This document shows positions 2,161-58,045 of a stretch of 64,000 nt of DNA, piece by piece. The notes under the pieces were generated by a model. It made no database searches. It saw only the letters and a list, made by a program, of their open reading frames with translations, and was not told where the DNA came from. Made by a program: the position numbers and the translations under genes. How positions within the stretch are numbered: the first letter of the stretch is position 1; each line of letters starts with the position of its first letter. The DNA is from Chiloscyllium plagiosum (lineage: Eukaryota), in NCBI RefSeq assembly GCF_004010195.1, contig NC_057751.1, positions 8,298,404 through 8,362,403 on the forward strand, read 5' to 3'.

Positions 2161-2164
2161 GTGT

Positions 2165-3083
2165 TATCTGGCAGGATACATTTCGGAAATGACTGCCAGA
2201 CGACTCAGACCCCTTTGCATCATGGTAGCCCACAAACCTACCAACAAACTATAACAGCAGCTAATGAACTTGAAAGACCCTATACAGATAACAAGCAATA
2301 CTAATGTCATTTACAAAATACCTTGCAAGAACTGTAACAAACACTACATTGGACAAACAGGCAGAAAACTAGCCACCAGTACCTGTACATCAACTCATCA
2401 TAAAAAGACTTGACCTACTCTCACTAATATCCTTTCATACGGATGAGGAAGAACACCACTTCGACTGGGACAACACCACAAACCTACCAACAAACTATAA
2501 CAGCAGCTAATGAACTTGAAAGACCCTATACAGATAACAAGCAATACTAATGTCATTTGCAAAATACCTTGCAAGGACTGTAACAAACACTACATTGGAC
2601 AAACAGGCAGAAAACTAGCCACCAGCATACCTGTACATCAACTCATCATAAAAAGACTTGACCTACTCTCACTAGTATCCTTTCATACGGATGAGGAAGA
2701 ACACCACTTCGACTGGGACAACACATCTATCCTTGGACAAGCCAAACAGCGACATGCACGAGAATTCCTAGAAGTATGGCATTCCAACTGGAACTCTATC
2801 AACAAACACATTGACTTGGATCCCATTTACGACCCCCTGAGAAAAAGAACCGGAAATGACATCACCATAGGCAATTGCATCATCACAGGAAATGACATCG
2901 CCAACCCAAGGAAACTGAAACACATAATAGAAAGCGGGCTACACCACCAGTGCTTCATCCGAGGCTCACTGAAGATGTTACCTAGTATGATGATGAAACG
3001 TTTGAAAGCGAACCTTCCAGCTCAGCGAGCAAACCTACATCCAGAACCTCAACCTGAGCTACAAATATTCTCAAAAACTCACT
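2165..3083 (+). mobile_element. Penelope-like element 3' fragment (GIY-YIG region plus pLTR with hammerhead motif, family D)
   Basis: GIY-YIG peptide followed by CTGAAGATGTTACC..GAAACG and a 3' tail; related copy on the minus strand at about 22210-22500. Confidence 0.85.
2230..2721 (+). repeat. 246-bp tandem duplication inside the PLE endonuclease region
   Basis: CACAAACCTACCAACAAACTATAAC starts at 2231 and again at 2477. Confidence 0.9.
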
Positions 3084-3085
3084 AA
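2510..3085 (+). pseudogene. GIY-YIG endonuclease domain of a Penelope-like element (remnant ORF)
   Basis: NVICKIPCKDCNKHYIGQTGRKLAT...HHFDWDNTSILG...AREFLE..HS...SIN: PLE GIY-YIG signature with CxxC between the motifs; no RT domain upstream. Confidence 0.85.
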
Positions 3086-3455
3086 ACTGCAGAGGGAAGT
3101 AGATCGGTTAAGTGAGTGGGCAAGGATCAGAAAGTGTGGCGCTGGAAAAGCACTGCAATTCAGACAGCATCTGAGGAGCAGGAGAGCATAAGCCCTTGAA
3201 GGGAGGGCAAGGGTCTGGCAAATGGTGTACAATGTTGGAAAATATGAGGTCATCCATTTTGGTAGGAATAATAATAATACAGACTATTATTTAAATGGTG
3301 AAAAATTGCAACATACTGCTGTGCAGAGGGACCTGGGTGTCCTAGTGCATGAATCACAAAACACTGGTTTATAGATGCAGCGGTTTATTAAGATGGCAAA
3401 TGGAATACTGTCCTTTCTTGCTAGAGGGATGGAGTTTAAATACAGTGAGGTTATG
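3084..3455 (+). mobile_element. CR1 ORF2 C-terminal fragment, interrupted by a family A remnant (about 3128-3198, minus strand)
   Basis: KYEVIHFGRNN..., QRDLGVLVHES, KMANGILSFLARGMEFK motifs. Confidence 0.75.
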
Positions 3456-3457
3456 TT

Positions 3458-3541
3458 AAGAAGAGCTTATGCCCGAAACGTCGATTCTCCTGCTCCTTGG
3501 ATGCTGCCTGACCTGCTGCGCTCTTCCAACAACACATTTTT
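3458..3541 (+). mobile_element. Family A PLE/hammerhead fragment
   Basis: GCTTATGCCCGAAACGTCGATTCTCCTGCTCCTTGGATGCTGCCTGACC. Confidence 0.8.
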
Positions 3542-3789
3542 CTGCCATGTGATAAAGGCTTGCAATGTTAACAGTATGTAATTGCTCATGAGTACAGTTG
3601 ATGACAACTGATAGCCGAATGGTTATGTTTGAGCAGAAAATATGACCCTAAAAGATTTTCTATGAGTCCAGGTGTTTGAAGCAAATGATGTCAAATGCTG
3701 ATGGGAGTGGGATCTGAAGAATGCTCATGAGAACGTAAGAACATAGGAGGCAAGTCTTTCCATACAAAGGGAGATGAGTTCCTGTAACG

Positions 3790-4270
3790 GGCTGCAAGAG
3801 GAGGTGGTGGAAGCAGACACAATAGTGACATTCAAGAAGCACTCGAATGTGTACATGAATAGGAAAGGAATAGAGGGATGTGGATCCTGGAAGTGAAGGC
3901 AGTTTTAGTATGGAAGGGCAAAATGTGTCAGCGCAGGATTGAAGGACTGAACAGTCTGTTCCTTTGTTGCACTATTCTTTGTTCTATAAGAAATCAGAGT
4001 CGGAGTCGGGCATCTGGCCCATTGAGCCTGCTCTGCCACTCAACAAGACCATGACTGATCTTTTCATGGATTCAGCAGCACTTACCCGCCCACTCCCTGT
4101 AATCCTTAATTCCTTTACTGTTCAAATATTTATCTATCTTTGCCTTAAAAACATTCAATGAGGTAGCCTCAACTGCTTCACTGGACAGGGAATTCCACAG
4201 ATTCGTAACCTTTTAGATGAAGAAGTTCCTCCTCACCTCAGTCCTAACTCTGCTCCACCTTATTTTGAGG
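3790..4270. mobile_element. Two CR1 3'-end fragments (+ about 3790-3985; - about 3995-4270)
   Basis: GAGGTGGTGGAAGCAGACAC..GGGATGTGG on +; GAATTCCACAGATTC..GAAGAAGTTCCTCCTCA reads as CR1 on -. Confidence 0.65.
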
Positions 4271-4387
4271 GCATAAGCCCGAAACGTCGATTCTCCTGCT
4301 CCTTTGATGCTGCCTGACCTGCTGCGCTTTTCCAGCAACACATTTTTCAGCTCTGATCTCCAGCATCTGCAGTCCTCACTTTCTCCT
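4268..4387 (+). mobile_element. Family A PLE/hammerhead element, 5' truncated
   Basis: GGGCATAAGCCCGAAACGTCGATTCTCC...CTCACTTTCTCC. Confidence 0.8.
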
Positions 4388-4662
4388 AATTTATCACATG
4401 GCAGCACTGTTACCAACTCAGAAGATGTGGAATCTCACAGCACTCAAATAGTTATGGCTTGCATCATTTAATTCCCTTCAGCAAAGAGAAGCCAACCAAA
4501 AACAATCATGTGAAAAACTCAACAATCACAAGGACTAAATTTGACTACGTTCCACCAGGTAACATCAACAATCTCACACCATGCACTGTTCTTTGTCCCA
4601 ACAAACATGCCACCGACAAAGCAGACTGTTTAATGGACACTACACTGACCATGTAGTACAGA

Positions 4663-4866
4663 GGAGAAAGTGAGGTCTGCAGATGCTGGAGATCAGAGCT
4701 GAAAGTGTGTTGCTGGAAAAGCGCAGCAGGTCAGGCAGCATCCAGGGAACAGCAGAATCGACGTTTCGGGCAGAAGCCTGAAGAAGGGCTTATGCCCGAA
4801 ACATCGATTCTCCTGTTCCCTGGATGCTGCCTGACCTGCTGCGCTTTTCCAGCAACACACTTTCAG
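4663..4866. mobile_element. Family A head-to-head inverted dimer
   Basis: Minus arm 4663-~4777 and plus arm ~4778-4866; 14-bp TSD CCATGTAGT(A/C)CAGA at 4649-4662 and 4867-4880. Confidence 0.85.
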
Positions 4867-9224: not shown

Positions 9225-9559
9225 AAAAAAGCTTTAGTAAGTCATCCTTTGTCAGCTGGTGTCTCTCTACCCTTCCCCCTTTTTTGAGGAGTCCTGTCTG
9301 GAAGACGAACCGCCACACTCTCCAACACAGGCAAGGCTCCTCCACCTCGCTCTACCCTATCAAACTCCCTCATTCCCCCCACTATCCTACCTCACTCCCC
9401 ACTGCCTACACTAGCCCTCCTTAAATCTAACCCCTTGACTACTCCCCGCTAACCCTCTCTCCCTCTCATCACCCTCTATCTGCCCACTGGTTCTGCTTAA
9501 CCTCGAACTTGTCACTGACTAGGGGTAAATCACAGGTTACACCACCTTACCCCAGTTCC

Positions 9560-9868
9560 AACCATACAGCTCAGCACCATCCCCATGGCCTATCCCAACT
9601 GTCAGTTTTCCTTCCCACCTCCTCTCTGACCCATCACCTTCACCCCACTTCCATCCACCTACTGCACTCTCAGCTACCTTCTCCCCAGCCCCATCCCCCC
9701 TTCTATTTATCTATCCATCCCTGAGGTTGCCAGCCTCATTCCTGATGAAGGGCTCCTGCCTGAAATGTCGATTCTCCTGGTCCTCGGATGCTGCATGACC
9801 TGCTGTGCTTTTCCAGCACCAAACATTCATGACTCTGACCTCCAGCATCTGCAGTCCTCACTTTCTCC
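9560..9868 (+). mobile_element. Family A PLE 3' region with upstream C-rich segment
   Basis: CATTCCTGATGAAGGGCTCCTGCCTGAAATGTCGATTCTCC...CTCACTTTCTCC. Confidence 0.75.
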
Positions 9869-25762: not shown

Positions 25763-26502
25763 GGGTCACAATAATATTCAGGAGAAAGACTGGTACAAAT
25801 GGATTGACAGTCAAAGGGGAGTGTCTGTTGTCCCTGTGAAACTACAAGACAGCAAAGCTTTTATTTCAAAAGAGGAGAGCAAGAAATTGGAAATGGAATA
25901 AAATAGTCTCACGTGCACACACTCTCACTCTGAGATACACACTCTCACAGACACACAACTCTCACTCTCTCAAGTGCGGACACACACCTCTGTCTCTTGA
26001 TGTCAAACATTTCTCCCTCACACACACACACACACAAACACACAAACAAAATCTCCCTCTCACATAGATTCATACTCTCACATTTGCACACACATCTCTC
26101 CCTCTCTTTCACATACACCCTATGTCTTTCTCTCATACACACATCTCTCTCTCTGACACACTCTTACACCCATCCAGATGCCTTTTAAATGCTGTAATTG
26201 TACCAGCCTCCACCATTTCCTCTGGCAGCTCATTCCAGACACACACCACCTGAGGTGTGAAAACGTTGCCCCTAAGGTCCCTTGTCAGTCTTTCCCCTTT
26301 CACCTTAGACCTATGCCCTCTAGTTTTGGACTGCCCCACCCTGGGAAAAAGACCTTGGCTATTCACCCTATCCATTATCCCCCATGATTTTATAAGCTCT
26401 CACACAGTACATTTATACACAGAGAGCTGTTCTGCCTGCAGCCCCAGGTCAAATGTCAGAGGCTGCAGTTGAGTTGGAAAGCACAGCGCCCCAGGTGATG
26501 TT
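25763..26502 (+). repeat. Source copy of a 740-bp local duplication (contains CA/CT microsatellite and a minus-strand CR1 fragment)
   Basis: Near-identical to 26872-27611 (offset 1109; three substitutions seen). Confidence 0.95.
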
Positions 26503-26871
26503 AAGTTACAGAATTTAGCTCAGAGTCCACCAGACATCTGTGATGTTTGCACTCTCAACAACAGAACCAAATGCCACTGGGAGAATGGAGTTTTGAATCT
26601 CCTGCAGGAACATCTCCACAGGCCTCTCTGCCTCCACACAGAATGCCCAGTCATTTACAGCTGAAAACAAGTATCTCCCTGACCCTGCTTGACGACAGCA
26701 GTAGCGATACAGTTTATTTATCATCTCCCAGCACATAATAATTGTTTTCATTTAAAGAAACAACTGCCACCAGGGATAAAGCATTTGTCACACAGGGAGC
26801 TTGCAAACACACTTGCTTTTCTTTTGCTGAGAATAGAACAGCGAACACTCAAAACAAGCAGATTACAAAAG

Positions 26872-27611
26872 GGGTCACAATAATAGTCAGGAGAAAGACT
26901 GGTACAAATGGATTGACAGTCAAAGGGGAGTGTCTGTTGTCCCTGTGAAACGACAAGACAGCAAAGCTTTTATTTCAAAAGAGGAGAGCAAGAAATTGGA
27001 AATGGAATAAAATAGTCTCACGTGCACACACTCTCACTCTGAGATACACACTCTCACAGACACACAACTCTCACTCTCTCAAGTGCGGACACACACCTCT
27101 GTCTCTTGATGTCAAACATTTCTCCCTCACACACACACACACACAAACACACAAACAAAATCTCCCTCTCACATAGATTCATACTCTCACATTTGCACAC
27201 ACATCTCTCCCTCTCTTTCACATACACCCTATGTCTTTCTCTCATACACACATCTCTCTCTCTGACACACTCTTACACCCATCCAGATGCCTTTTAAATG
27301 CTGTAATTGTACCAGCCTCCACCATTTCCTCTGGCAGCTCATTCCAGACACACACCACCTGAGGTGTGAAAACGTTGCCCCTAAGGTCCCTTGTCAGTCT
27401 TTCCCCTTTCACCTTAGACCTATGCCCTCTAGTTTTGGACTGCCCCACCCTGGGAAAAAGACCTTGGCTATTCACCCTATCCATTATCCCCCATGATTTT
27501 ATAAGCTCTCACACAGTACATTTATACACAGAGAGCTGTTCTGCCTGCAGCCCCAGGTCAAATGTCAGAGGCTGCAGTTGAGTTGGAAAGCACAGCACCC
27601 CAGGTGATGTT
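26872..27611 (+). repeat. Derived copy of the 740-bp duplication
   Basis: Lies with a family A element inside the TSD CAGATTACAAAAGG (26859-26872 and 27700-27713). Confidence 0.95.
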
Positions 27612-27702
27612 TCCTGAAGAAGGGCTTATGCCCGAAATGTTGATTCTCCTGTTCCTTGGATGCTGCCTGACCTGCTGCACTTTTCCAGCAACACATTTTC
27701 AG
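27611..27702 (+). mobile_element. Family A PLE/hammerhead arm
   Basis: TTCCTGAAGAAGGGCTTATGCCCGAAATGTTGATTCTCC...ACACATTTTCAG. Confidence 0.85.
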
Positions 27703-28689
27703 ATTACAAAAGGTGGCAAGAAAAAAGAAATAGCGTCACATTACACCTGTAGACATTTCGTCAAAACCTGAGTCCTCCACAAAGCATGAATGAGTGAGCA
27801 ATGATTCCAACTGCCTGCATTTTCTGATATTATTCATGGAGTTAGCCTTGCGATGGGATAAAGCTCCCAATTCTGAACGGGCTACCTGCCAAGGTCCATT
27901 GCATACTGAGGGATACATTTGACCTTTAGCACGGCAAGTGCAGCACCGCGTACTCCCCGAATCAATCCTGAGAACCAGAGTGTGGAGATCTATGAGCCCA
28001 ACTCTCAGCATTCTCTGACCATGAAAGTTTTAATTCACCAGCAAAGTTTCAGAGCACCACTTCAGATCGAATTTCACAACAGTGTAATCTCACTTAAATC
28101 TTTGATTGTTTTTCATCATGGCCTGGTCGCTTGCATTCCTGTCTGAGTCATTCAGTTGACTTTTCTGTTGTCAAAGGCAGTCATACCTGTAAGGTCTTGG
28201 TAGCCTTAAGAGATACATTCGGCCCATCAGGACATATGATGCAGGACTCATATTCATTTTGCAGAGTAATGGATGCAAATTAGCAGTTTGCTTATGCAAG
28301 TGGGTATAGACCATTTTGTGACATTCCATGGTCCTGTAATGCAAATATTGTTCTTTTTCCAATAACATTTGCAAAATAGACAGCAGTGACCACTGCACTG
28401 TAAACTTATGAAAATATAACGTCTTACAATAGAAATGGCCATCTAACCAAGACCACTTAGTCCTTCAGTGTGCCTGGGCTGCACATCAACTTGTCCCCGG
28501 TTTGCTGATTCACCCAGACAAGAGCTCCCCAAAATCAAGTTTGCACTGGGCTTGAAAGTTTTCCATTTCTTGCTGTTACCTGTCAGGTCGCACTTCCTGG
28601 AGAGAGTGAGGACAGAGGAATGGCTGATTTAGGAGTCATTCAATGGCAAAGAGGGAATTCAATCCACATAATTATGAGGTGGTTCACTT

Positions 28690-29460
28690 AGACAGGACAC
28701 ACAAGGCAAGAGAATACATGGTGAACAGAGGGTCCCTGGGAACCACTAAGGATCAGAGGGACCCTTGGTGTGCATGTCCACTGTCACCCAAAGGTAATGG
28801 GACAAGTTTATGAAGTGATTAAAAAGGCGTCTGGGATACTTGTCTTTATGAGGAGAGACAGAGAGTTTTAAAGCAGGCAGGTTATTCTGGAAATGTATAA
28901 GGCATTGGTTATTCCACAGCAAGAAAATTGTGTGCATTCTGGAATCTGTGTCACTGGAGGGGTGTGACTGCACTACAGAGTGTGCAGAGGAGATTTTCCA
29001 GAATGTTGCCTGAGCTGGGGGAGGTTCAGTTACAAAGAGAGATCGGACAGACCAAAGTTGTTTTCCTCAGTGGAGAGGAGATTGAGAGGGTACATGACTG
29101 AGGTGAATAAAATTGAGGGGCACAGAGTTGACAGGTAGAAACTTCTCCTCTGATGGAAGGATGAATGCACAGGGAAGCATACATTGAAGGTGAGGCGGCA
29201 GAAGGTTTAAAGTAGATGTTAGGAATTATTTTTCACCCAGGGAATGGTGGGCATCTGCAACTCACTGGCAGTAAAGGTCGTGGAGGCAGAAACCTTCAAA
29301 ACATTGATGAACTATTTTAAAGTATATTTATAGTGACAAGGCAGATGATGCTGTGGACTATGTGCTGGAAACTGGGATTAGAATACTTGGGTGGCTGTTT
29401 TTGACTGGTGTAGACTCTATGGACTGAAGGAGTTTTGTCTGTGCTGAAGATCTTTATCAC
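28690..29460 (+). mobile_element. Old CR1 3' fragment
   Basis: CAGAGGGACCCTTGGTGTGCATGTCCA; GTGCAGAGGAGATTTTCCAGAATGTTGCC; decayed 3' UTR. Confidence 0.7.
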
Positions 29461-35019: not shown

Positions 35020-35672
35020 GCTGTCCTGGGTGATGAGTGGAATGGAATGTTATAGCTAAGGGAATAGAACATACAAGTAAGAAAGTATTGCGGCAACAAT
35101 AGAAGGTATTAGTGAGTCCGCACATGGAGTACTGTGCACAATCTTGGTTCCCTTATTTGAGGAAAGATGTAGTGGCATCGGAGGCAGTTGAGACGAGGTT
35201 CACTCAATTGATTCCAGAGATGAGGGGTTTGTCGTATGAGGAGAGATTGAACAGCTTAGACCTCTCCTCTCTGGAATTTCAAAGAATGAGGGGAGATCAA
35301 ACCGAAGCATTCAATATGATAAAAGGTGCTGCAAAAAGCAGACGTGGAGCGGATGCCTCCTCTTGTGAAGCATTTTAGGACGAGAGGTCATAGTCTTAGG
35401 ATAAGGGTTACAAGTTTAAAAGGTTACAAGAGTTGGGCAGAAACAAATTCGCACAGAGGGTTGTGAATCTGTAGAATTTGCTACCCCAGAGTGCGGTAGA
35501 TGCTGGGACTGTGAGGAAATTTAAGGAGGAGTTAGAGAGATTTATAATTGGGAATGGGTTGAAGGGATATGGAGAGATGGCAGGAAAATGGGAGGGAGGA
35601 GCATATCAGCCATGTTTGAGTGGAGGAACTCAATGGGCTGAATGGCCTAATTCTGCTCCGATATCTTATTAA
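35020..35672 (+). mobile_element. CR1 3' fragment
   Basis: PHMEYCAQSWFPYLRKDVVA...RFTQLIPEMRGLSYEERL. Confidence 0.85.
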
Positions 35673-36409: not shown

Positions 36410-37460
36410 CCAGAAGAGCAAAATTAGGCCATTCGGTCCATCAAGTTTGTTCCACTATTCAATCATGGCTGATATGTTTCTCAATCCCATTCTCCTGAGT
36501 TCTCCTTGTAACCCATGATCCCCTTACTATTAAAAACCTATCAGTTTTGGTCTTAAATACACTCAATAACTTGGCCCACACAGCCCTCTGTGTCAATGAG
36601 TTCCACAGATTAATTCTGTGGCTGAAGAAATTCTATCTCATTTCACTTCTAAAAGATCGTCCCTTCACTCTGAGGCTGTTCCCTTGTGTATGAGTCTATC
36701 CTACTAGTAGAAACATCTTCTCCACGTCCACTCTCTCCAAGCCTCTTTAAGATACAATGAAATCCCCCCGATCCTTCTGAACTCAACGAATACAGACCCA
36801 GAATGCTCAACAGCCCCTCATATGACAAGCCCTTCACATGGTTTACTACCTGAAACCTTTTTGGTTTTGTTCACTGGTCAGTACGTTCATGGCTGCTTTT
36901 TCACCTCAGCACCACATTCCTGTAGTATCCCCACATTCTTCGATTTTGTTCCCGTCCAAATATTTTCAATTACAATTGAACTCTGAATGCCAGACCAACC
37001 ACAACCGTTTGTGGTAGAGAATCCTACCCTTCAACGTACCATAAAAGCATAAGAACATAAGAAACAGGAGCAGGAGTAGGCCATCTGGCCCATCGATCCT
37101 GGTCCACCATACAATAAGATCATCGCTGACCTTTTCATGGACTCAGCTCCACTTACCCACCCACTCACCATAACCCTCAATTCCTTTGCTGTTCAAAAAT
37201 CGACATATCTTTGCCTTAAGAACATTCAACGAGGTAGCCTCAACTTCTTCAATGGGCAGGGATTCACAACCCTTTAGATGAAGAATTTCCTCCTTGACTC
37301 ACTCTTAAATCTGCGCCCTCTTATTTTGAAGCTATGCCCCCCCCAGTTCTAATTTCACCAGCCAGTGAAAACAACCCTTCTGCTTCTACCTTATCGATTC
37401 CCTTTATGTGTTTCTGCAGGATCCCCCTCATTCTTCTCAATCTATTCTCTAAATCTCTTC
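36410..37460 (-). mobile_element. Two CR1 3' fragments (about 36410-36840 and 37045-37460)
   Basis: KGLSYEG..LGLYSL and KGIDKVEAEGLFSL on the minus strand; AGGAGTAGGCCAT.TGGCCCATCGA tails. Confidence 0.75.
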
Positions 37461-44261: not shown

Positions 44262-44831
44262 GGGTGTACAAAGTTAAAAATCACACAACACTAGGGTATT
44301 GTCCAGCAGGTTTATTTGGAAGCACTAGCTTTTGGAGTGCCTCTCCTTCATCAGGTGATTCTGAAGTATAAGATTGTAAGACACAGAATTTATCGCAAAT
44401 GTTTACAGTGTGATGCAACTAAAATTACATGCTGATAAAGACCTGGATTGTTTGTTAAGTCTCTCATCTTTTTGAATGACCATGTTGGTTTCAGTTCTTT
44501 CATATGTAAATGACACTTTTTAAGTGAACTTTAACATGACACCATATTGTTAAAGTGCACTTGCGAATGTAACTTTTTAAAAAAGTTCTGGGATTTACAT
44601 ATTAAAGAACTGAAACCAGACATGGTCATTCGAAAAGATGAGAGATGTAACAAACAATCTAGGTCTTTTTCAATATAGAATTTCAGTTGTATCACATTGT
44701 AGATGTTTGCTATAAATTCTGGTCTTATTATCTTATAGTTCACAATCACCTGATGAAGAAACAGCGCTCCTAAAGCTAGTGCTTCCAAATAAACCTGTTG
44801 GACTATAACCTGGTGTTGTGCGATTTTTAAC
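44262..44831. mobile_element. Family C long inverted dimer (about 570-bp palindrome)
   Basis: Two ~270-bp arms in opposite orientation with apex AAGTGAACTTTAACA..TGTTAAAGTGCACTT near 44541; each arm has CACCTGATGAAG..AAAGCTAGTG. Confidence 0.85.
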
Positions 44832-46119
44832 GTTATATTTGATCCCACATCCTACAATATTGGCCCACATCTCTCACCAACCCAATAATACTTTCTCTCA
44901 GTCTCTGCCCTCAGATTTCTACGAACTCAGCCACAGACATTCTTGGTTTTAGCTTGGACACAAGTAATCAACTGTGGGTGGTTGTTGCATTGCATTTACT
45001 TCTTATAATCTACCAGCAGAGCCTCGAATACAGGTCTTTGATCAATTATTCAAGTACAGGGAACATATTTGAGGGCTAATCCAAATAACTTTGAGGAACA
45101 CAGGAAAAGGCGGGATCTTGTCCAAAGGTTGCTCTCATTATCCAAATTCCAACCTTACTTCATTAAAAAAAGGAAACAATATCTATTCTAGGTCATAGGC
45201 TTATACTATCATTGTGTTTTCTGTCACCCAGTCAGGGGACAATTAATCTTATCATAGATGTTCTTGCTGCTTTGTCATTTCCCCTGTCAGTGCCTGGCAC
45301 CTCCTGTCTGTCAAACTCTCTGCAAGATCTGTCAAGAGCATTTTGATCGCGCTAACTATTGTTGATAGATTCCTGCTGGCACCATCCTCTTGGAATCATA
45401 AGGTTCAGCTCATACAAGGTCCTTGAATTGAAGCCTGCTCTTCATGTTTTCCCTATTTAACCCTTAGTCTAAATCACTCAGATTGTTAATGTTGGCGTAC
45501 CAGTGGTGACAATAAGTCAAGAAAATCCAATGAAAAGGAGATGCCACAATCGCAAACAAAATTATTTCATTTTCAAGTTCGCTGGGGTGCCAGGTTGTTG
45601 CAAATTTTCAGTGCGTCGGGGACAGATGGAATCATCTGAAGAAATGGAAGTTAAGTAGGACTCAAACTTTCTTTCAAATTAAGTGGAACAGGTTGATTTC
45701 TGCAATGAAGCAGTTACGTTGCAGGGCAAGTTTGAGCAGGATGCCCATTGGAGTTTATGAATGTGAGGGGTTGACTAATCCAAATGGGGTTGACAGATTA
45801 GATACTGAAAGGAAGTTTCCTGTCTGGGGAAATTTGGATCAGGTGAGCCACAGTTTCAGGACAAGGGGTCTCCCATTTAAGAGGGAGATGCGGATAAATT
45901 TCTTCCGCGGACAATGAATCGTTTGAATTCTTAAGCCTGGATAGCAGAGGAAGCCGGGTTGTTGAATACAGAGATGTCTGTATTCAGATTTTGAATCTAC
46001 AAGGGCAAAGATTGATACAGAAGTGGAGTTAACATCACAATCGGGTCAGCTGTGATCTTAACAAATGGTGGTGCAGGCCAAGGGCTTAAATGACCAATTC
46101 TTGTTGTTATTGCTTGCAG

Positions 46120-47808: not shown

Positions 47809-47816
47809 ACAAAGTG

Positions 47817-47857
47817 TTAGGGTTAGGGTTAGGTTAGGGTTAAGGTTAAGGTTAGGG
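47817..47857 (+). repeat. Interstitial telomere-like repeat, about 7 units of TTAGGG
   Basis: TTAGGG TTAGGG TTAGG TTAGGG TTAAGG TTAAGG TTAGGG. Confidence 0.85.
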
Positions 47858-51636: not shown

Positions 51637-51777
51637 CACAGTACACTGGCTGTAGACAGCCAGCTCAGAGTCACTGCCCTCAACTGAGGAGATTCTAAAT
51701 CCCCTGGTTATATATATTTTTTTCACAGAGTCAGTACCCTAAACTGAGGAGACTGTAAATCTCCTGGTTATATATTC

Positions 51778-52150
51778 TTTTACTTTACCCCCATACTACC
51801 CGCTGAACTGCGATAGCGCTTATATTTTCCCCAGCACCCATGTTGTGTGTGTGCAGGTGTGAGACGCAGTGAAAGACACAAGGTGCACGAATCTTTATTC
51901 AATTTCCACCAGCAGGAAGAAAGGAAACAACCGAGTGGCCAGTGACAAGCAGTGCCCTTCACATCAAAGGGCGATGGTGTGTAATCAAACAGTGAAGGGG
52001 AGGTCAGGGATTAAATCAAAATAGAGTTGGAGGGGGAAATAATGCACTCCACTCCCTGCGGTGCCCACCTCTCCCTGAACAGCTCAAGGGTGTTGGTGGA
52101 CACCATGTGCTCCCTCTCCAGGGACACTCTGGCTCGAACGTAATCCCGTA
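51778..52150 (-). mobile_element. Tx1-clade LINE 3' end
   Basis: Minus frame RDYVRARVSLEREHMVSTNTLELFRERWAPQGVECIISPSNSILI* (stop 52011-52013), then 3' UTR with AATAAA and an A-rich end. Confidence 0.65.
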
Positions 52151-56039: not shown

Positions 56040-57400
56040 CAGTGATAACCCTGAAAACTGGGATAAATTCAGAGCCCAACAGAGGACAAAAAAAGTAACA
56101 AAGACAAAGAAAGTAAACTGAGAGGGAAACCAGCAAGGAATATAAAAACTAACAATCAGAGCTTCTTCCGCTGTATAAAAAGAAAGAGAGAGATCAAAGT
56201 GGAGAGAAGCCCCTTGCAGATGAATCTGGGGAGACCGATTTGGGGAATAAGGAACTAACAGAAGGATTAAAGAGATATTTCACATCAGTCTTTTTGTTAG
56301 AAAATACTTCAAACATCCCACTAATGTGAAAGAATACAGGGAGGACTTAAGTACCATTACAATCACGAGACATGTAGTAATGGACAAACTAATGGAACTG
56401 ATGGAAGATAAATCTCTTGGCCGTGAAGGCTTGCCTCTGAAAAGAGATGGCTACAGACATCGTTGATGCATTGTTTGTCATTTTCCAAAAGTCCTTGGAC
56501 TCTGGATTGGAAAGCTGCAAAAGTGACACTCTGACTCAAAAAGGGAGGGAGTAAAACTTAGGTAACTATTGGCTGATTAGCCTAAAGTCTATTGTTGGAA
56601 AAGTACTGGAGTCAATTTTGATCGAGGTAATAGCAGAACACAAGGAAAATCACAATCAAAACAAGCAGACACAGTATGTTTTCATGAAAGGTAAGGAGTG
56701 TCTGACTGATTTGTTAGTTTTTCAAGGAAGTCTTAACTGGAATGAACAGAAGTGAACCAGAGGAAGGGTAACTCTTAGCTCTGATTTCTCTCCACAGGTG
56801 CTGCCAGACCTGCTGAGCTTTTCCAGCAATTTCTGTTTTTAAACCTATAGGAGTGTGGCATTGGGACTTCTAAAGGTTAAGTCATAAGATAAGAGTCCGT
56901 ACTCTTCAAGGTAATGTATTGGCATGGATAGAGAATTGGCTCATGGGCAGGATACAGCGTGTGGGGATAAGGGATGCTTTTTCAGGTTGGCAACCTGTGA
57001 CCAAAGGAAATCCACAGGAATCTGTGCTGGGACCACAACAGTTTACAATGTTTACTCATGACCTGGCAGAAATAAGTGAATGTATTGCAGCCAAATTTGC
57101 AAAAGTAGATGGAAAGATAGGTTGTGAAAGAGATACTAACAACTTAAAGTGATCTATTAATAGGTTAAGTGGACAAAAGGTTGGCAAATGGAGTATAATA
57201 TGAAGAGAAAACAAAACTATCTAACTGGAGAAAAGTGCAGAAAGCTACAAAACAAAGGGACTTGGGGCCTACAAAACACAGAAAGCCGGTGCACAGATAC
57301 AGCAGGTAATCAGAAAGGTTAATGGAATACTGGGCCTGAATTCAAGGGGTTTCGAGTTTAAAGGTCGGAAAGTCTGAGTGCAACTGTACAAAGATCCTTA
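56040..57400 (+). mobile_element. CR1 ORF2 (RT) fragment with a family B insert at about 56760-56840
   Basis: GNY.LISLKSIVGKVLESI; AWIENWLMGRIQRVGIRDAFSGWQPVTKGNPQESVLGP. Confidence 0.85.
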
Positions 57401-57404
57401 GACA

Positions 57405-57710
57405 GCACCTTCTAAACCCACGACCACTTGTACTTCGAAGGACAAGGGCATCAGATACATTGGAACACAACCCCCTGCAAATTCTCATTCAATCCACTCA
57501 CCATCCCGGTTTGGAAATATATCACCATTCATTCACTGCTGCTGGATCAAAATCCTGGAATTCCCTCCCTCAGCACATTCTGCATCTATCTACAGCATAT
57601 GGACTGCAGTGTTTCAATAAGGGAGCTCACCATCCCCCCGCCACCCCCACCTTCTTACAGGGCAATAAATGCTGGCCCAGCTGGTGTCGCCCAAGTCCCA
57701 TGAATGAAAG
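57405..57710 (+). mobile_element. CR1/L2-clade LINE 3' end sharing its tail with the third-family SINE
   Basis: GSKSWNSLP..GLQCFNKGAHH; tail GGGCAATAAATGCTGGCC..ATGAATGAA. Confidence 0.7.
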
Positions 57711-57711
57711 A

Positions 57712-58045
57712 AGGAGGCTTGACAGGGTAAATGCGGAGAGAATGTTTCTCTTGGGAGAGTCAAGGACCAGAGGGTATAGTCTCAGAATAAAGGGGAGCCA
57801 ATGTAAAATTGAAATGAGAAGGAATTTCATCTCTCAGAAGTTTGAGAGTCTTTGGAACTCCTTACCAGAGAGCTCTGGGGGCAGAGTCCTTGTATATGTT
57901 TAGGGCTGAGATAGATTCTTTAACAGTCAGGGAATCATGGGTAGACATGAGGAGTGTCAGATCAGCCATGACGCTCTTGAATGGAGGTGCAGACTTAAAG
58001 GGCTGAATGGCCTTTTCCTACTCCTCTGTGTTGTGATCTTATGGT
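57712..58045 (+). mobile_element. CR1 3' end
   Basis: LDRVNAERMFLLGESRTRGYSLRIKG..EMRRNFISQ. Confidence 0.8.

What the first reader, a model, noticed from the sequence alone, without database searches (positions are those of the whole stretch)
26859..27713. 740 bp of neighbouring DNA captured inside a retroelement TSD
A perfect 14-bp direct repeat CAGATTACAAAAGG (26859-26872 and 27700-27713) brackets a near-identical copy of 25763-26502 fused to a family A arm. The arm starts at the hammerhead 5' edge (27611) and ends at the usual truncated-arm position. Junctions show 1-3 nt microhomology. The local copy takes the place normally held by the second inverted arm, and its end contains GTTGGAAAGCACAGC, resembling the element's minus strand. 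Inference: template switching from element RNA to nearby DNA or pre-mRNA during insertion, i.e. PLE-driven local duplication that could duplicate exons or enhancers.
Basis: partly seen in the sequence, partly recalled or inferred. Interest (0 to 1): 0.75.

Follow-up and report, generated by a model that had tools for sequence, protein, structure and literature searches.

The report
Retroelement insertion duplicated neighbouring DNA
A 90-base end-piece of a likely Penelope-type jumping gene sits, together with a 740-base copy of DNA from just upstream, between two copies of a 14-base target; two other individuals carry the insert and a close relative has the empty site, so the duplication likely arose when a polymerase switched to nearby DNA while the insertion was sealed, a process known for human LINE-1.

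Summary
The exact 14-bp repeat (26859-72 / 27700-13) brackets a 737/740 copy of 25763-26502 joined to a hammerhead-headed arm, with junction overlaps of 1, 1 and 3 nt. Six of 14 other family spans have 13-15-bp TSDs.

Public contigs: two same-species individuals bridge the TSD-copy junction. A relative about 3% diverged has one contig across the empty site, with neither arm nor duplication.

Best reading (about 0.7): one insertion. The arm was reverse-transcribed from the family's short start site, and the missing second arm was replaced by synthesis on DNA 0.36-1.1 kb upstream. Against it: the arm lost 3 of 4 CpGs while the copies differ by 0.4%. RNA versus DNA template is untested. The claimed resemblance to the element's minus strand is weak, and no exon was duplicated.

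The same family also left an apparent 810-bp inversion with an inverted TSD at 3458-4403. LINE-1 templated insertions are the known analogue; my searches found no report for Penelope-like elements. The scan noted similar captures on other DNA of this genome (unchecked notes).

The parts
25763..26502 (+). Template segment X, the original copy: unique 25763-25905, CA/CT-rich 25906-26161, LINE 3' fragment on the minus strand 26162-26395, unique 26396-26502
   Evidence: 737/740 identity to 26872-27611; LINE hits elsewhere in the window and minus-strand translation; single-copy depth in organisms B and C
26503..26858 (+). 356-nt spacer between template and target, not duplicated
   Evidence: No second copy in self-BLAST; organism B contig runs X end - spacer - target - right flank (record 8)
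26859..26872 (+). Left copy of the 14-bp target-site duplication
   Evidence: present once in organism B (record 8); run X1 has lost one A in this copy (table 4)
26872..27611 (+). Captured direct copy X' of the template (740 nt, 1-nt overlaps at both ends)
   Evidence: TSD-X' junction bridged by contigs of X1 (to 26916) and X6 (to 26985)
27611..27702 (+). Family A short arm (likely the pLTR end of a Penelope-like element); the last 3 nt are shared with the TSD
   Evidence: 91-94% identity to copies at 4777, 58811, 3458 and 4268; alignment A1; X1 and X6 contigs reach 21-23 nt into the arm from the TSD side
27611..27645 (+). Minimal hammerhead motif: core CTGAAGA 27614-20, extra A, stem II 27622-33, GAAA 27634-37; the helix III palindrome and cleavage base are decayed by C>T at 27638 and 27641
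   Evidence: read from alignment A1 against the description in PMC4209133; pair counts; no Rfam hit at gathering score
27700..27713 (+). Right copy of the 14-bp target-site duplication

Best explanation
The 827 bases between the two 14-base repeats are absent from a close relative, and were likely laid down in one insertion in which reverse transcription of a likely Penelope-type RNA end was completed by copying nearby chromosomal DNA. Steps: (1) Inferred: the element's endonuclease nicked both strands 14 nt apart. (2) Inferred: the bottom-strand end primed reverse transcription at the family's short internal start site, with a 3-nt CAG match, and copied about 90 nt to the usual 5' edge just before the hammerhead core. 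(3) Shown for siblings: a second, inverted arm with the 38-nt tail normally fills the other side; here it is absent. (4) Inferred: the free cDNA end, or the free top-strand end, caught the chromosome 356 nt upstream with about 1 nt of pairing. It copied 740 nt, let go and was joined to the other end. This gives a direct-orientation local duplication inside the TSD. The template was more likely DNA (the resected left end or the sister chromatid) than pre-mRNA, by roughly 3 to 1. Whether the element's RT or a host repair polymerase did the copying cannot be told from the sequence.
For: Organism B (run X12) record 8 is one 1822-nt contig: X end, spacer, then straight into 27700-29000, so target once, no arm, no copy. 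Organism C (X19) record 17 starts on 27700 with 59 unlaid letters and does not continue into the arm. Those 59 letters would overlap record 15 by exactly 30 nt if they are the spacer (my arithmetic; the piece is not displayed). Two organism A individuals from two studies bridge TSD|X' in unbroken contigs and join arm to TSD. TSD length matches the family: 13-15 bp in 6 of 14 other spans, including 5 of 5 inverted pairs. Both ends of the arm sit at family-typical positions. A lizard Penelope-like protein nicks and extends both strands and starts at two internal sites that define the 30-40-nt tail (PMC11167929). LINE-1 makes templated insertions of nearby DNA (10.1101/2024.08.27.596794; PMC11702581). 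The same family left an apparent 810-bp inversion with an inverted 15-bp TSD in this window, a DNA-level event that an RNA template would not explain.
Against: The ages do not match. The arm lost 3 of 4 CpGs with 0-1 other changes, against 2 of 20 CpGs in five young siblings (binomial p about 0.004, post hoc) and 1 of 8 in X plus X' (Fisher p 0.067). X and X' differ by only 0.4%, while A and B differ by 59/1811 = 3.3%. All three X/X' differences lie within 81 nt of the ends (p about 0.01, post hoc), so conversion or assembly polishing may have reset the clock. The X'|arm junction is not among the displayed contig pieces (one search shows 28 rows and hides 273,626). One-base overlaps carry no mechanistic weight. 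Only two individuals and two relatives were laid, so a vanished intermediate is not excluded. No RT/endonuclease ORF is linked to family A in the window.
Confidence: 0.7

Rival explanations
1. Two steps. An ordinary TSD-flanked insertion (inverted pair or solo arm) came first. Later a break or fork stall at the hairpin was repaired by templated synthesis from upstream DNA, which replaced the left arm.
For: The arm's CpG decay looks older than the 0.4% X/X' divergence. The A-B split leaves time (3.3%). Hairpins are fragile sites (general knowledge).
Against: The second event must end exactly at the TSD edge and exactly at the arm's usual 5' edge, with no base of a left arm left. A CpG 14 nt inside X' (27597) has also decayed, and the differences cluster at the ends, which fits an older joint insertion followed by homogenisation. 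No intermediate appears in the four runs laid (displayed rows).
Confidence: 0.14
2. One event, but the RT jumped from the 5' end of the element RNA to a nascent plus-strand host transcript (pre-mRNA co-insertion). This shares the single-event claim of the best reading and differs only in the template; the value given is my overall probability for an RNA template, a share of the 0.7.
For: The switch sits exactly at the modal 5' edge of the RNA-derived arm. The orientation requires a plus-sense template, which an RNA could supply. One LINE-1 case of local pre-mRNA co-insertion is reported (PMC10191854).
Against: No host exon was found: a crude splice-site scan gave 9 weak candidates, none at the locus, and Pfam gave no hit above cut-off for 9 of the 95 long ORFs tested. 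The sibling inversion is a DNA-level event. The transcribed strand was not tested.
Confidence: 0.18
3. An element-independent tandem duplication of 25763-26872 came first. An arm then inserted in the second copy with deletion of the 356-nt spacer, so the 14-mer is a leftover of the tandem, not a TSD.
For: The geometry is formally identical. An element-free 249-bp tandem duplication exists at 2230-2724.
Against: The arm would have to land 13-15 nt from the end of a 1110-nt unit to mimic the family TSD length (about 0.3% by position). It would also be younger than the duplication, which makes the CpG mismatch worse.
Confidence: 0.04
4. Assembly artefact, or X' is a multi-copy mobile unit that carries host DNA.
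For: The copies are nearly identical and contain simple repeats. An earlier scan note (e1-7858329) found such a multi-copy case elsewhere in this genome.
Against: Independent contigs bridge the novel TSD|X' junction in two individuals. The unique part of X has depth 28.6 against 16.7-18.7 in flanks in X1 (about two copies), 14.1 against 16.6 in B, and 7.7 against 6-9 in C.
Confidence: 0.02

Closest known systems
LINE-1 'templated insertions' (bioRxiv 10.1101/2024.08.27.596794, passages seen; PMC11702581, passages and section 13)
   Same: Non-element genomic DNA copied into a retrotransposon insertion during integration, duplicating a local segment; proposed route by cDNA release and pairing with nearby DNA.
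   Different: There: LINE-1, somatic, 22 cases, typically under 250 bp and within 15 bp of the site. Here: a germline, apparently fixed, likely Penelope-type arm with a 740-bp template 356-1096 bp away, standing in place of the inverted second arm.
Insertion units of endonuclease-bearing Penelope-like elements: pLTR with minimal hammerhead, inverted 5'-truncated partner, 30-40-nt tail (PMC8557442, PMC4209133, PMC3846280, passages; PMC11167929, parts 1-2 of 4 read)
   Same: Hammerhead motif at the 5' edge, two 3' end positions 38 nt apart, inverted siblings with one long and one short arm, TSDs.
   Different: This copy lacks the inverted arm and holds local DNA instead. No RT/GIY-YIG ORF is attached to family A in the window.
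Host gene framed by Penelope pLTRs with a TSD in Adineta vaga (PMC3846280, passages)
   Same: Host sequence inside a TSD made by Penelope machinery, with the empty site verified.
   Different: There an intron-containing gene is framed by pLTRs on both sides and read as mobilised in trans. Here the template is 0.36 kb from the target and only one arm is present.
LINE-1 co-insertion of locally transcribed pre-mRNA (PMC10191854, passages)
   Same: Sequence from the vicinity of the site is co-inserted by a strand switch.
   Different: An RNA template was inferred there from an expressed gene; no transcript or strand is shown here.
Dualen LINE-associated duplications, median 900 bp, in Chlamydomonas (PMC9977147, passages)
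   Same: Insertion-coupled duplication of similar size.
   Different: Those are giant TSDs that flank the element on both sides. Here a normal 14-bp TSD exists and the duplicated block is separated from the target by 356 unduplicated bases.

Membership tests
Penelope-like element insertion unit (EN+ pLTR end) | Minimal hammerhead motif in the terminal repeat | tested here: met
   Core, extra base, G-C closing stem II, GAAA and palindromic helix III in the family consensus; stem II 85% paired. Covariation is not above shuffles, there is no Rfam hit, and this copy is decayed at two positions.
Penelope-like element insertion unit (EN+ pLTR end) | Two 3' end positions separated by a 30-40-nt tail | tested here: met
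   Short ends near 27699-27702 and 4866, long ends 38 nt further on; older short arms end up to about 10 nt later.
Penelope-like element insertion unit (EN+ pLTR end) | Inverted 5'-truncated partner and TSD | tested here: met
   5 of 5 inverted pairs among 15 spans have 13-15-bp TSDs. This copy has the TSD but not the partner; an inverted partner is described as frequent, not obligatory.
Penelope-like element insertion unit (EN+ pLTR end) | Repeat belongs to an element that encodes RT plus GIY-YIG endonuclease | tested here: inconclusive
   No shared upstream body among 9 copies compared. No whole genome is held. The GIY-YIG-like remnant at 2161-3085 (motif recalled; no Pfam hit) ends in a different hammerhead family.
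Penelope-like element insertion unit (EN+ pLTR end) | Ribozyme self-cleavage; mobilisation by the PLE protein | not testable with these tools
   Needs bench assays.
Retrotransposition-coupled templated insertion (LINE-1 type) | Local non-element DNA inside the TSD, absent from the pre-insertion allele | tested here: met
   (organism B record 8)
Retrotransposition-coupled templated insertion (LINE-1 type) | Template and element arrive in one event | tested here: inconclusive
   No intermediate in four runs; exact boundaries favour one event; CpG decay of the arm argues for caution.
Retrotransposition-coupled templated insertion (LINE-1 type) | Typical size under 250 bp, template within 15 bp (typical values, not strict) | tested here: not met
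   740 bp, 356-1096 bp away. It works like these events but is not a LINE-1 case.
Pre-mRNA co-insertion | Captured strand equals the transcribed strand of a host gene | not tested
   Reads were laid on four DNA runs; no exon was found to orient a gene.
Dualen-type giant TSD | Duplicated block directly flanks the element on both sides | tested here: not met
   356-nt unduplicated spacer and a separate 14-bp TSD.

The most novel reading that the evidence does not exclude
Mini Penelope-type insertions are a routine engine of kilobase-scale local duplication and inversion in this shark-like genome. Opening both strands leaves two free ends, and when the second arm is not made, the end (perhaps held by the element's own telomerase-related RT) engages DNA within about 1 kb. 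Two of 14 family A insertion units in this 64-kb window carry a roughly 0.8-kb rearrangement: this duplication and the inversion at 3458-4403. With the family's very high copy number, that would mean many thousands of TSD-marked rearrangements, datable against close relatives.
Probability: 0.3. Interest if true: 0.65.

Novelty: new variant of a known kind. Interest (0 to 1): 0.43.

Why it matters
How Penelope-like elements finish an insertion is still open: PMC11167929 says the steps after reverse transcription are not validated. A TSD-bounded capture with a verified empty site records that step: the cDNA end can be joined through local templated synthesis instead of a second arm. If the rate suggested by this window holds genome-wide, these abundant stubs are a neglected source of small duplications and inversions in cartilaginous fishes. 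This single case duplicates no recognisable gene part, and the general process is known from LINE-1.

Tried and rejected
No whole genome is held, so no genome-wide count was possible.

Rfam found no match in the window at gathering score. Single-strand folds of four hammerhead regions were not more stable than shuffles (z -1.3 to 0.4), as expected for minimal motifs, so they are no evidence either way. Covariation on A1 was not above shuffles.

The homology-guided switch via GTTGGAAAGCACAGC was rejected as support.

A possible short exon at the X end (frame reading MSEAAVELESTAPQ, then a weak donor) scored 3.3 as donor and negative as acceptor in my crude matrices; it was left open and not counted. 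The exon scan gave 9 weak candidates. Pfam on 9 of 95 ORFs gave two sub-threshold hits only.

An exact search for the 89-nt arm in metagenome contigs, to see whether the CpG-decayed form is a subfamily, found 0; this is uninformative because that collection is not expected to hold this genome. No RNA holder was listed for the stretch, and no RNA run was laid.

Searches for a published Penelope case of local templated capture found none; the library lacks most subscription papers, and bioRxiv supplements (for example Supplementary Fig. 4d of 10.1101/2024.08.27.596794) were not seen. PMC13174262 (passages) concerns LINE-1/RNA chimeras; splicing does not explain this junction, since the donor-like site lies 8 nt short of it. 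bioRxiv 10.64898/2026.07.22.740005 (2 passages) added nothing.

Full report
OBSERVATION. The 14-mer CAGATTACAAAAGG occurs at 26859 and 27700 only. Between the copies lie 827 bases: a gap-free 737/740 direct copy (X', 26872-27611) of 25763-26502 (X) and an arm of a dispersed repeat (27611-27699/27702). A 356-nt spacer (26503-26858) separates X from the target and is not duplicated. Junction overlaps are 1 nt, 1 nt and 3 nt. The claimed likeness of the X end to the element's minus strand is weak: 669 of 873 background windows score as well against the inserted arm, 135 against copy 58790, and 10 and 3 of 873 against two other copies.

THE FAMILY. About 20 arms lie in the window. The full unit is about 130 nt and begins just before a minimal hammerhead motif (compared with PMC4209133, passages). 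Of 15 spans examined, 7 have 13-15-bp direct repeats at their ends with at most one mismatch: this one, the solo at 129 and all 5 inverted pairs. The other 8 showed none of that length, though two of them pair up as described below. Each inverted pair has one long and one short arm; the young short end lies 38 nt before the long end. This matches the inverted-copy-plus-tail architecture of Penelope-like elements (PMC8557442, PMC3846280, passages). It also matches the in vitro finding that a lizard Penelope-like protein nicks and extends both strands from two internal start sites (PMC11167929, parts 1-2 of 4 read). No RT or endonuclease frame is attached to family A in the window, so membership rests on architecture. 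'Shark-like' and 'CR1-like' are my recalled labels from the repeat content; earlier scan notes also say shark.

PUBLIC READS. Twenty of 24 listed runs hold part of the stretch; four were laid on 26503-29000. Organism B, run X12: one 1822-nt contig covers the X end, the spacer to 26858 and then 27700-29000. That is the empty site, with one target copy, no arm and no duplication, 59 differences in 1811 letters (3.3%). Organism C, run X19: a contig starts on 27700 with 59 unlaid letters and does not run into the arm; the overlap arithmetic with its neighbour fits the empty site, but the piece is not displayed. Organism A, runs X1 and X6 (two samples, two studies): single contigs run from the X end through the spacer and target into X' (44 and 113 letters past the junction), and others join the TSD to the last 21-23 letters of the arm, short of the tool's 31-letter rule for bridging. 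These contigs do not break at the target, which suggests both individuals lack an empty allele; contigs drop rare variants and 345 joints were not shown, so this is soft. X1 may or may not be the source sample; it differs from the window at several sites, including one base of the left TSD. The X'|arm junction is not among the displayed pieces. Depth over the unique part of X is about 1.6 times the flanks in X1 and about 1 time in B and C, so X is not a dispersed repeat.

MECHANISM. Best reading (0.7): one insertion. Staggered nicks 14 nt apart; reverse transcription from the short site to the usual 5' edge; then, instead of a second arm, templated synthesis of 740 nt from upstream sequence, joined by single-base overlaps. 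The cut, the priming and the switch are inferred; the structure and the empty ancestral site are shown. The exact coincidence of both X' ends with the TSD edge and the arm's modal edge is the main argument for one event. A DNA template is favoured over pre-mRNA, roughly 3 to 1, because no host exon was found and because a sibling event is a DNA-level inversion. The strand test was not run.

SECOND EVENT. The short arm at 3458-3541 and the long arm at 4268-4387, both on the plus strand, are followed by the same 15-mer in opposite orientation (3542-3556 and 4389-4403). Flipping 3458-4267 would give the canonical target-arm-arm-target unit. It would also bring the LINE pieces at 3200-3457 (+) and 4267-3986 (-) into one orientation and order: both match a third copy near 57258-57864 in that order, with roughly 300 nt missing (my estimate). 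This looks like an insertion-coupled inversion of about 810 bp. It was not checked against relatives.

RESULTS AGAINST. The arm lost 3 of 4 CpGs with almost no other change, against 2 of 20 in five young siblings and 1 of 8 in X/X'. X and X' differ by 0.4%, and all three differences are within 81 nt of the ends. Either the source RNA came from an already decayed copy, or X and X' were homogenised after an older joint insertion, or the arm came first and the capture later (rival, 0.14). A tandem duplication followed by insertion with deletion needs a 0.3% coincidence and worsens the age conflict (0.04). Artefact is nearly excluded (0.02).

KNOWN KINDS AND NOVELTY. LINE-1 templated insertions are the same kind of event but are smaller and closer to the site (10.1101/2024.08.27.596794, passages; PMC11702581, passages and section 13). 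Local pre-mRNA co-insertion is reported once for LINE-1 (PMC10191854, passages). Penelope-framed host genes (PMC3846280) and Dualen giant TSDs (PMC9977147, passages) differ in geometry. Six searches found no paper on local templated capture by Penelope-like elements; the library is incomplete. The scan's own unchecked notes describe at least five similar captures of 85 bp to 1.7 kb on other pieces of this genome; they are leads, not evidence. What this case adds is a tested empty site, independent carriers, complete replacement of the second arm, and a companion inversion. The duplicated DNA holds no recognisable exon. Verdict: real, new variant of a known kind, interest 0.43.

Noticed in passing
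window 3458-4403: Two family A arms in the same orientation, each followed by the same 15-mer in opposite orientation (3542-3556 / 4389-4403). Flipping 3458-4267 restores the canonical inverted unit and a collinear LINE: a likely insertion-coupled inversion of about 810 bp with a deletion of about 300 bp.
   Followed up: partly
window 2230-2476 / 2476-2724: 249-bp tandem duplication (98%) inside a GIY-YIG-like Penelope remnant (2161-3085, motif recalled) that ends in a different hammerhead family; no arm at the junction.
   Followed up: no
window 27611-27702 and 27597: Four of five CpGs within about 100 bp have decayed, on both strands, although the duplication looks young; unexplained.
   Followed up: partly
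window 26103 / 27212: The window has T in both copies, while run X1 and both relatives read C. A derived base shared by both copies hints at conversion, recombination or polishing; contigs may have dropped one allele.
   Followed up: no
window 26452-26517 (and 27561-27611): Short plus-strand frame MSEAAVELESTAPQ followed by a weak donor-like site; could be a first exon or chance.
   Followed up: partly
window 9290-9868: The family A arm at 9739 is preceded by about 450 nt of C-rich sequence that may be the body of a longer parent element; no TSD found within 5 kb.
   Followed up: partly
window 44267-44837: Large fold-back (arms 44267-44485 and 44620-44837, about 85%) of another repeat family, overlapping an ORF remnant at 44531-44851.
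   Followed up: no
window 47816-47857: Seven degenerate GTTAGG telomere-like repeats next to a SINE-like copy.
   Followed up: no
window 35581-35658 / 36416-36497 and 51666-51781: Two further two-copy local repeats: an 82-nt inverted pair at 79% and a 56-nt near-tandem pair at 86%.
   Followed up: no
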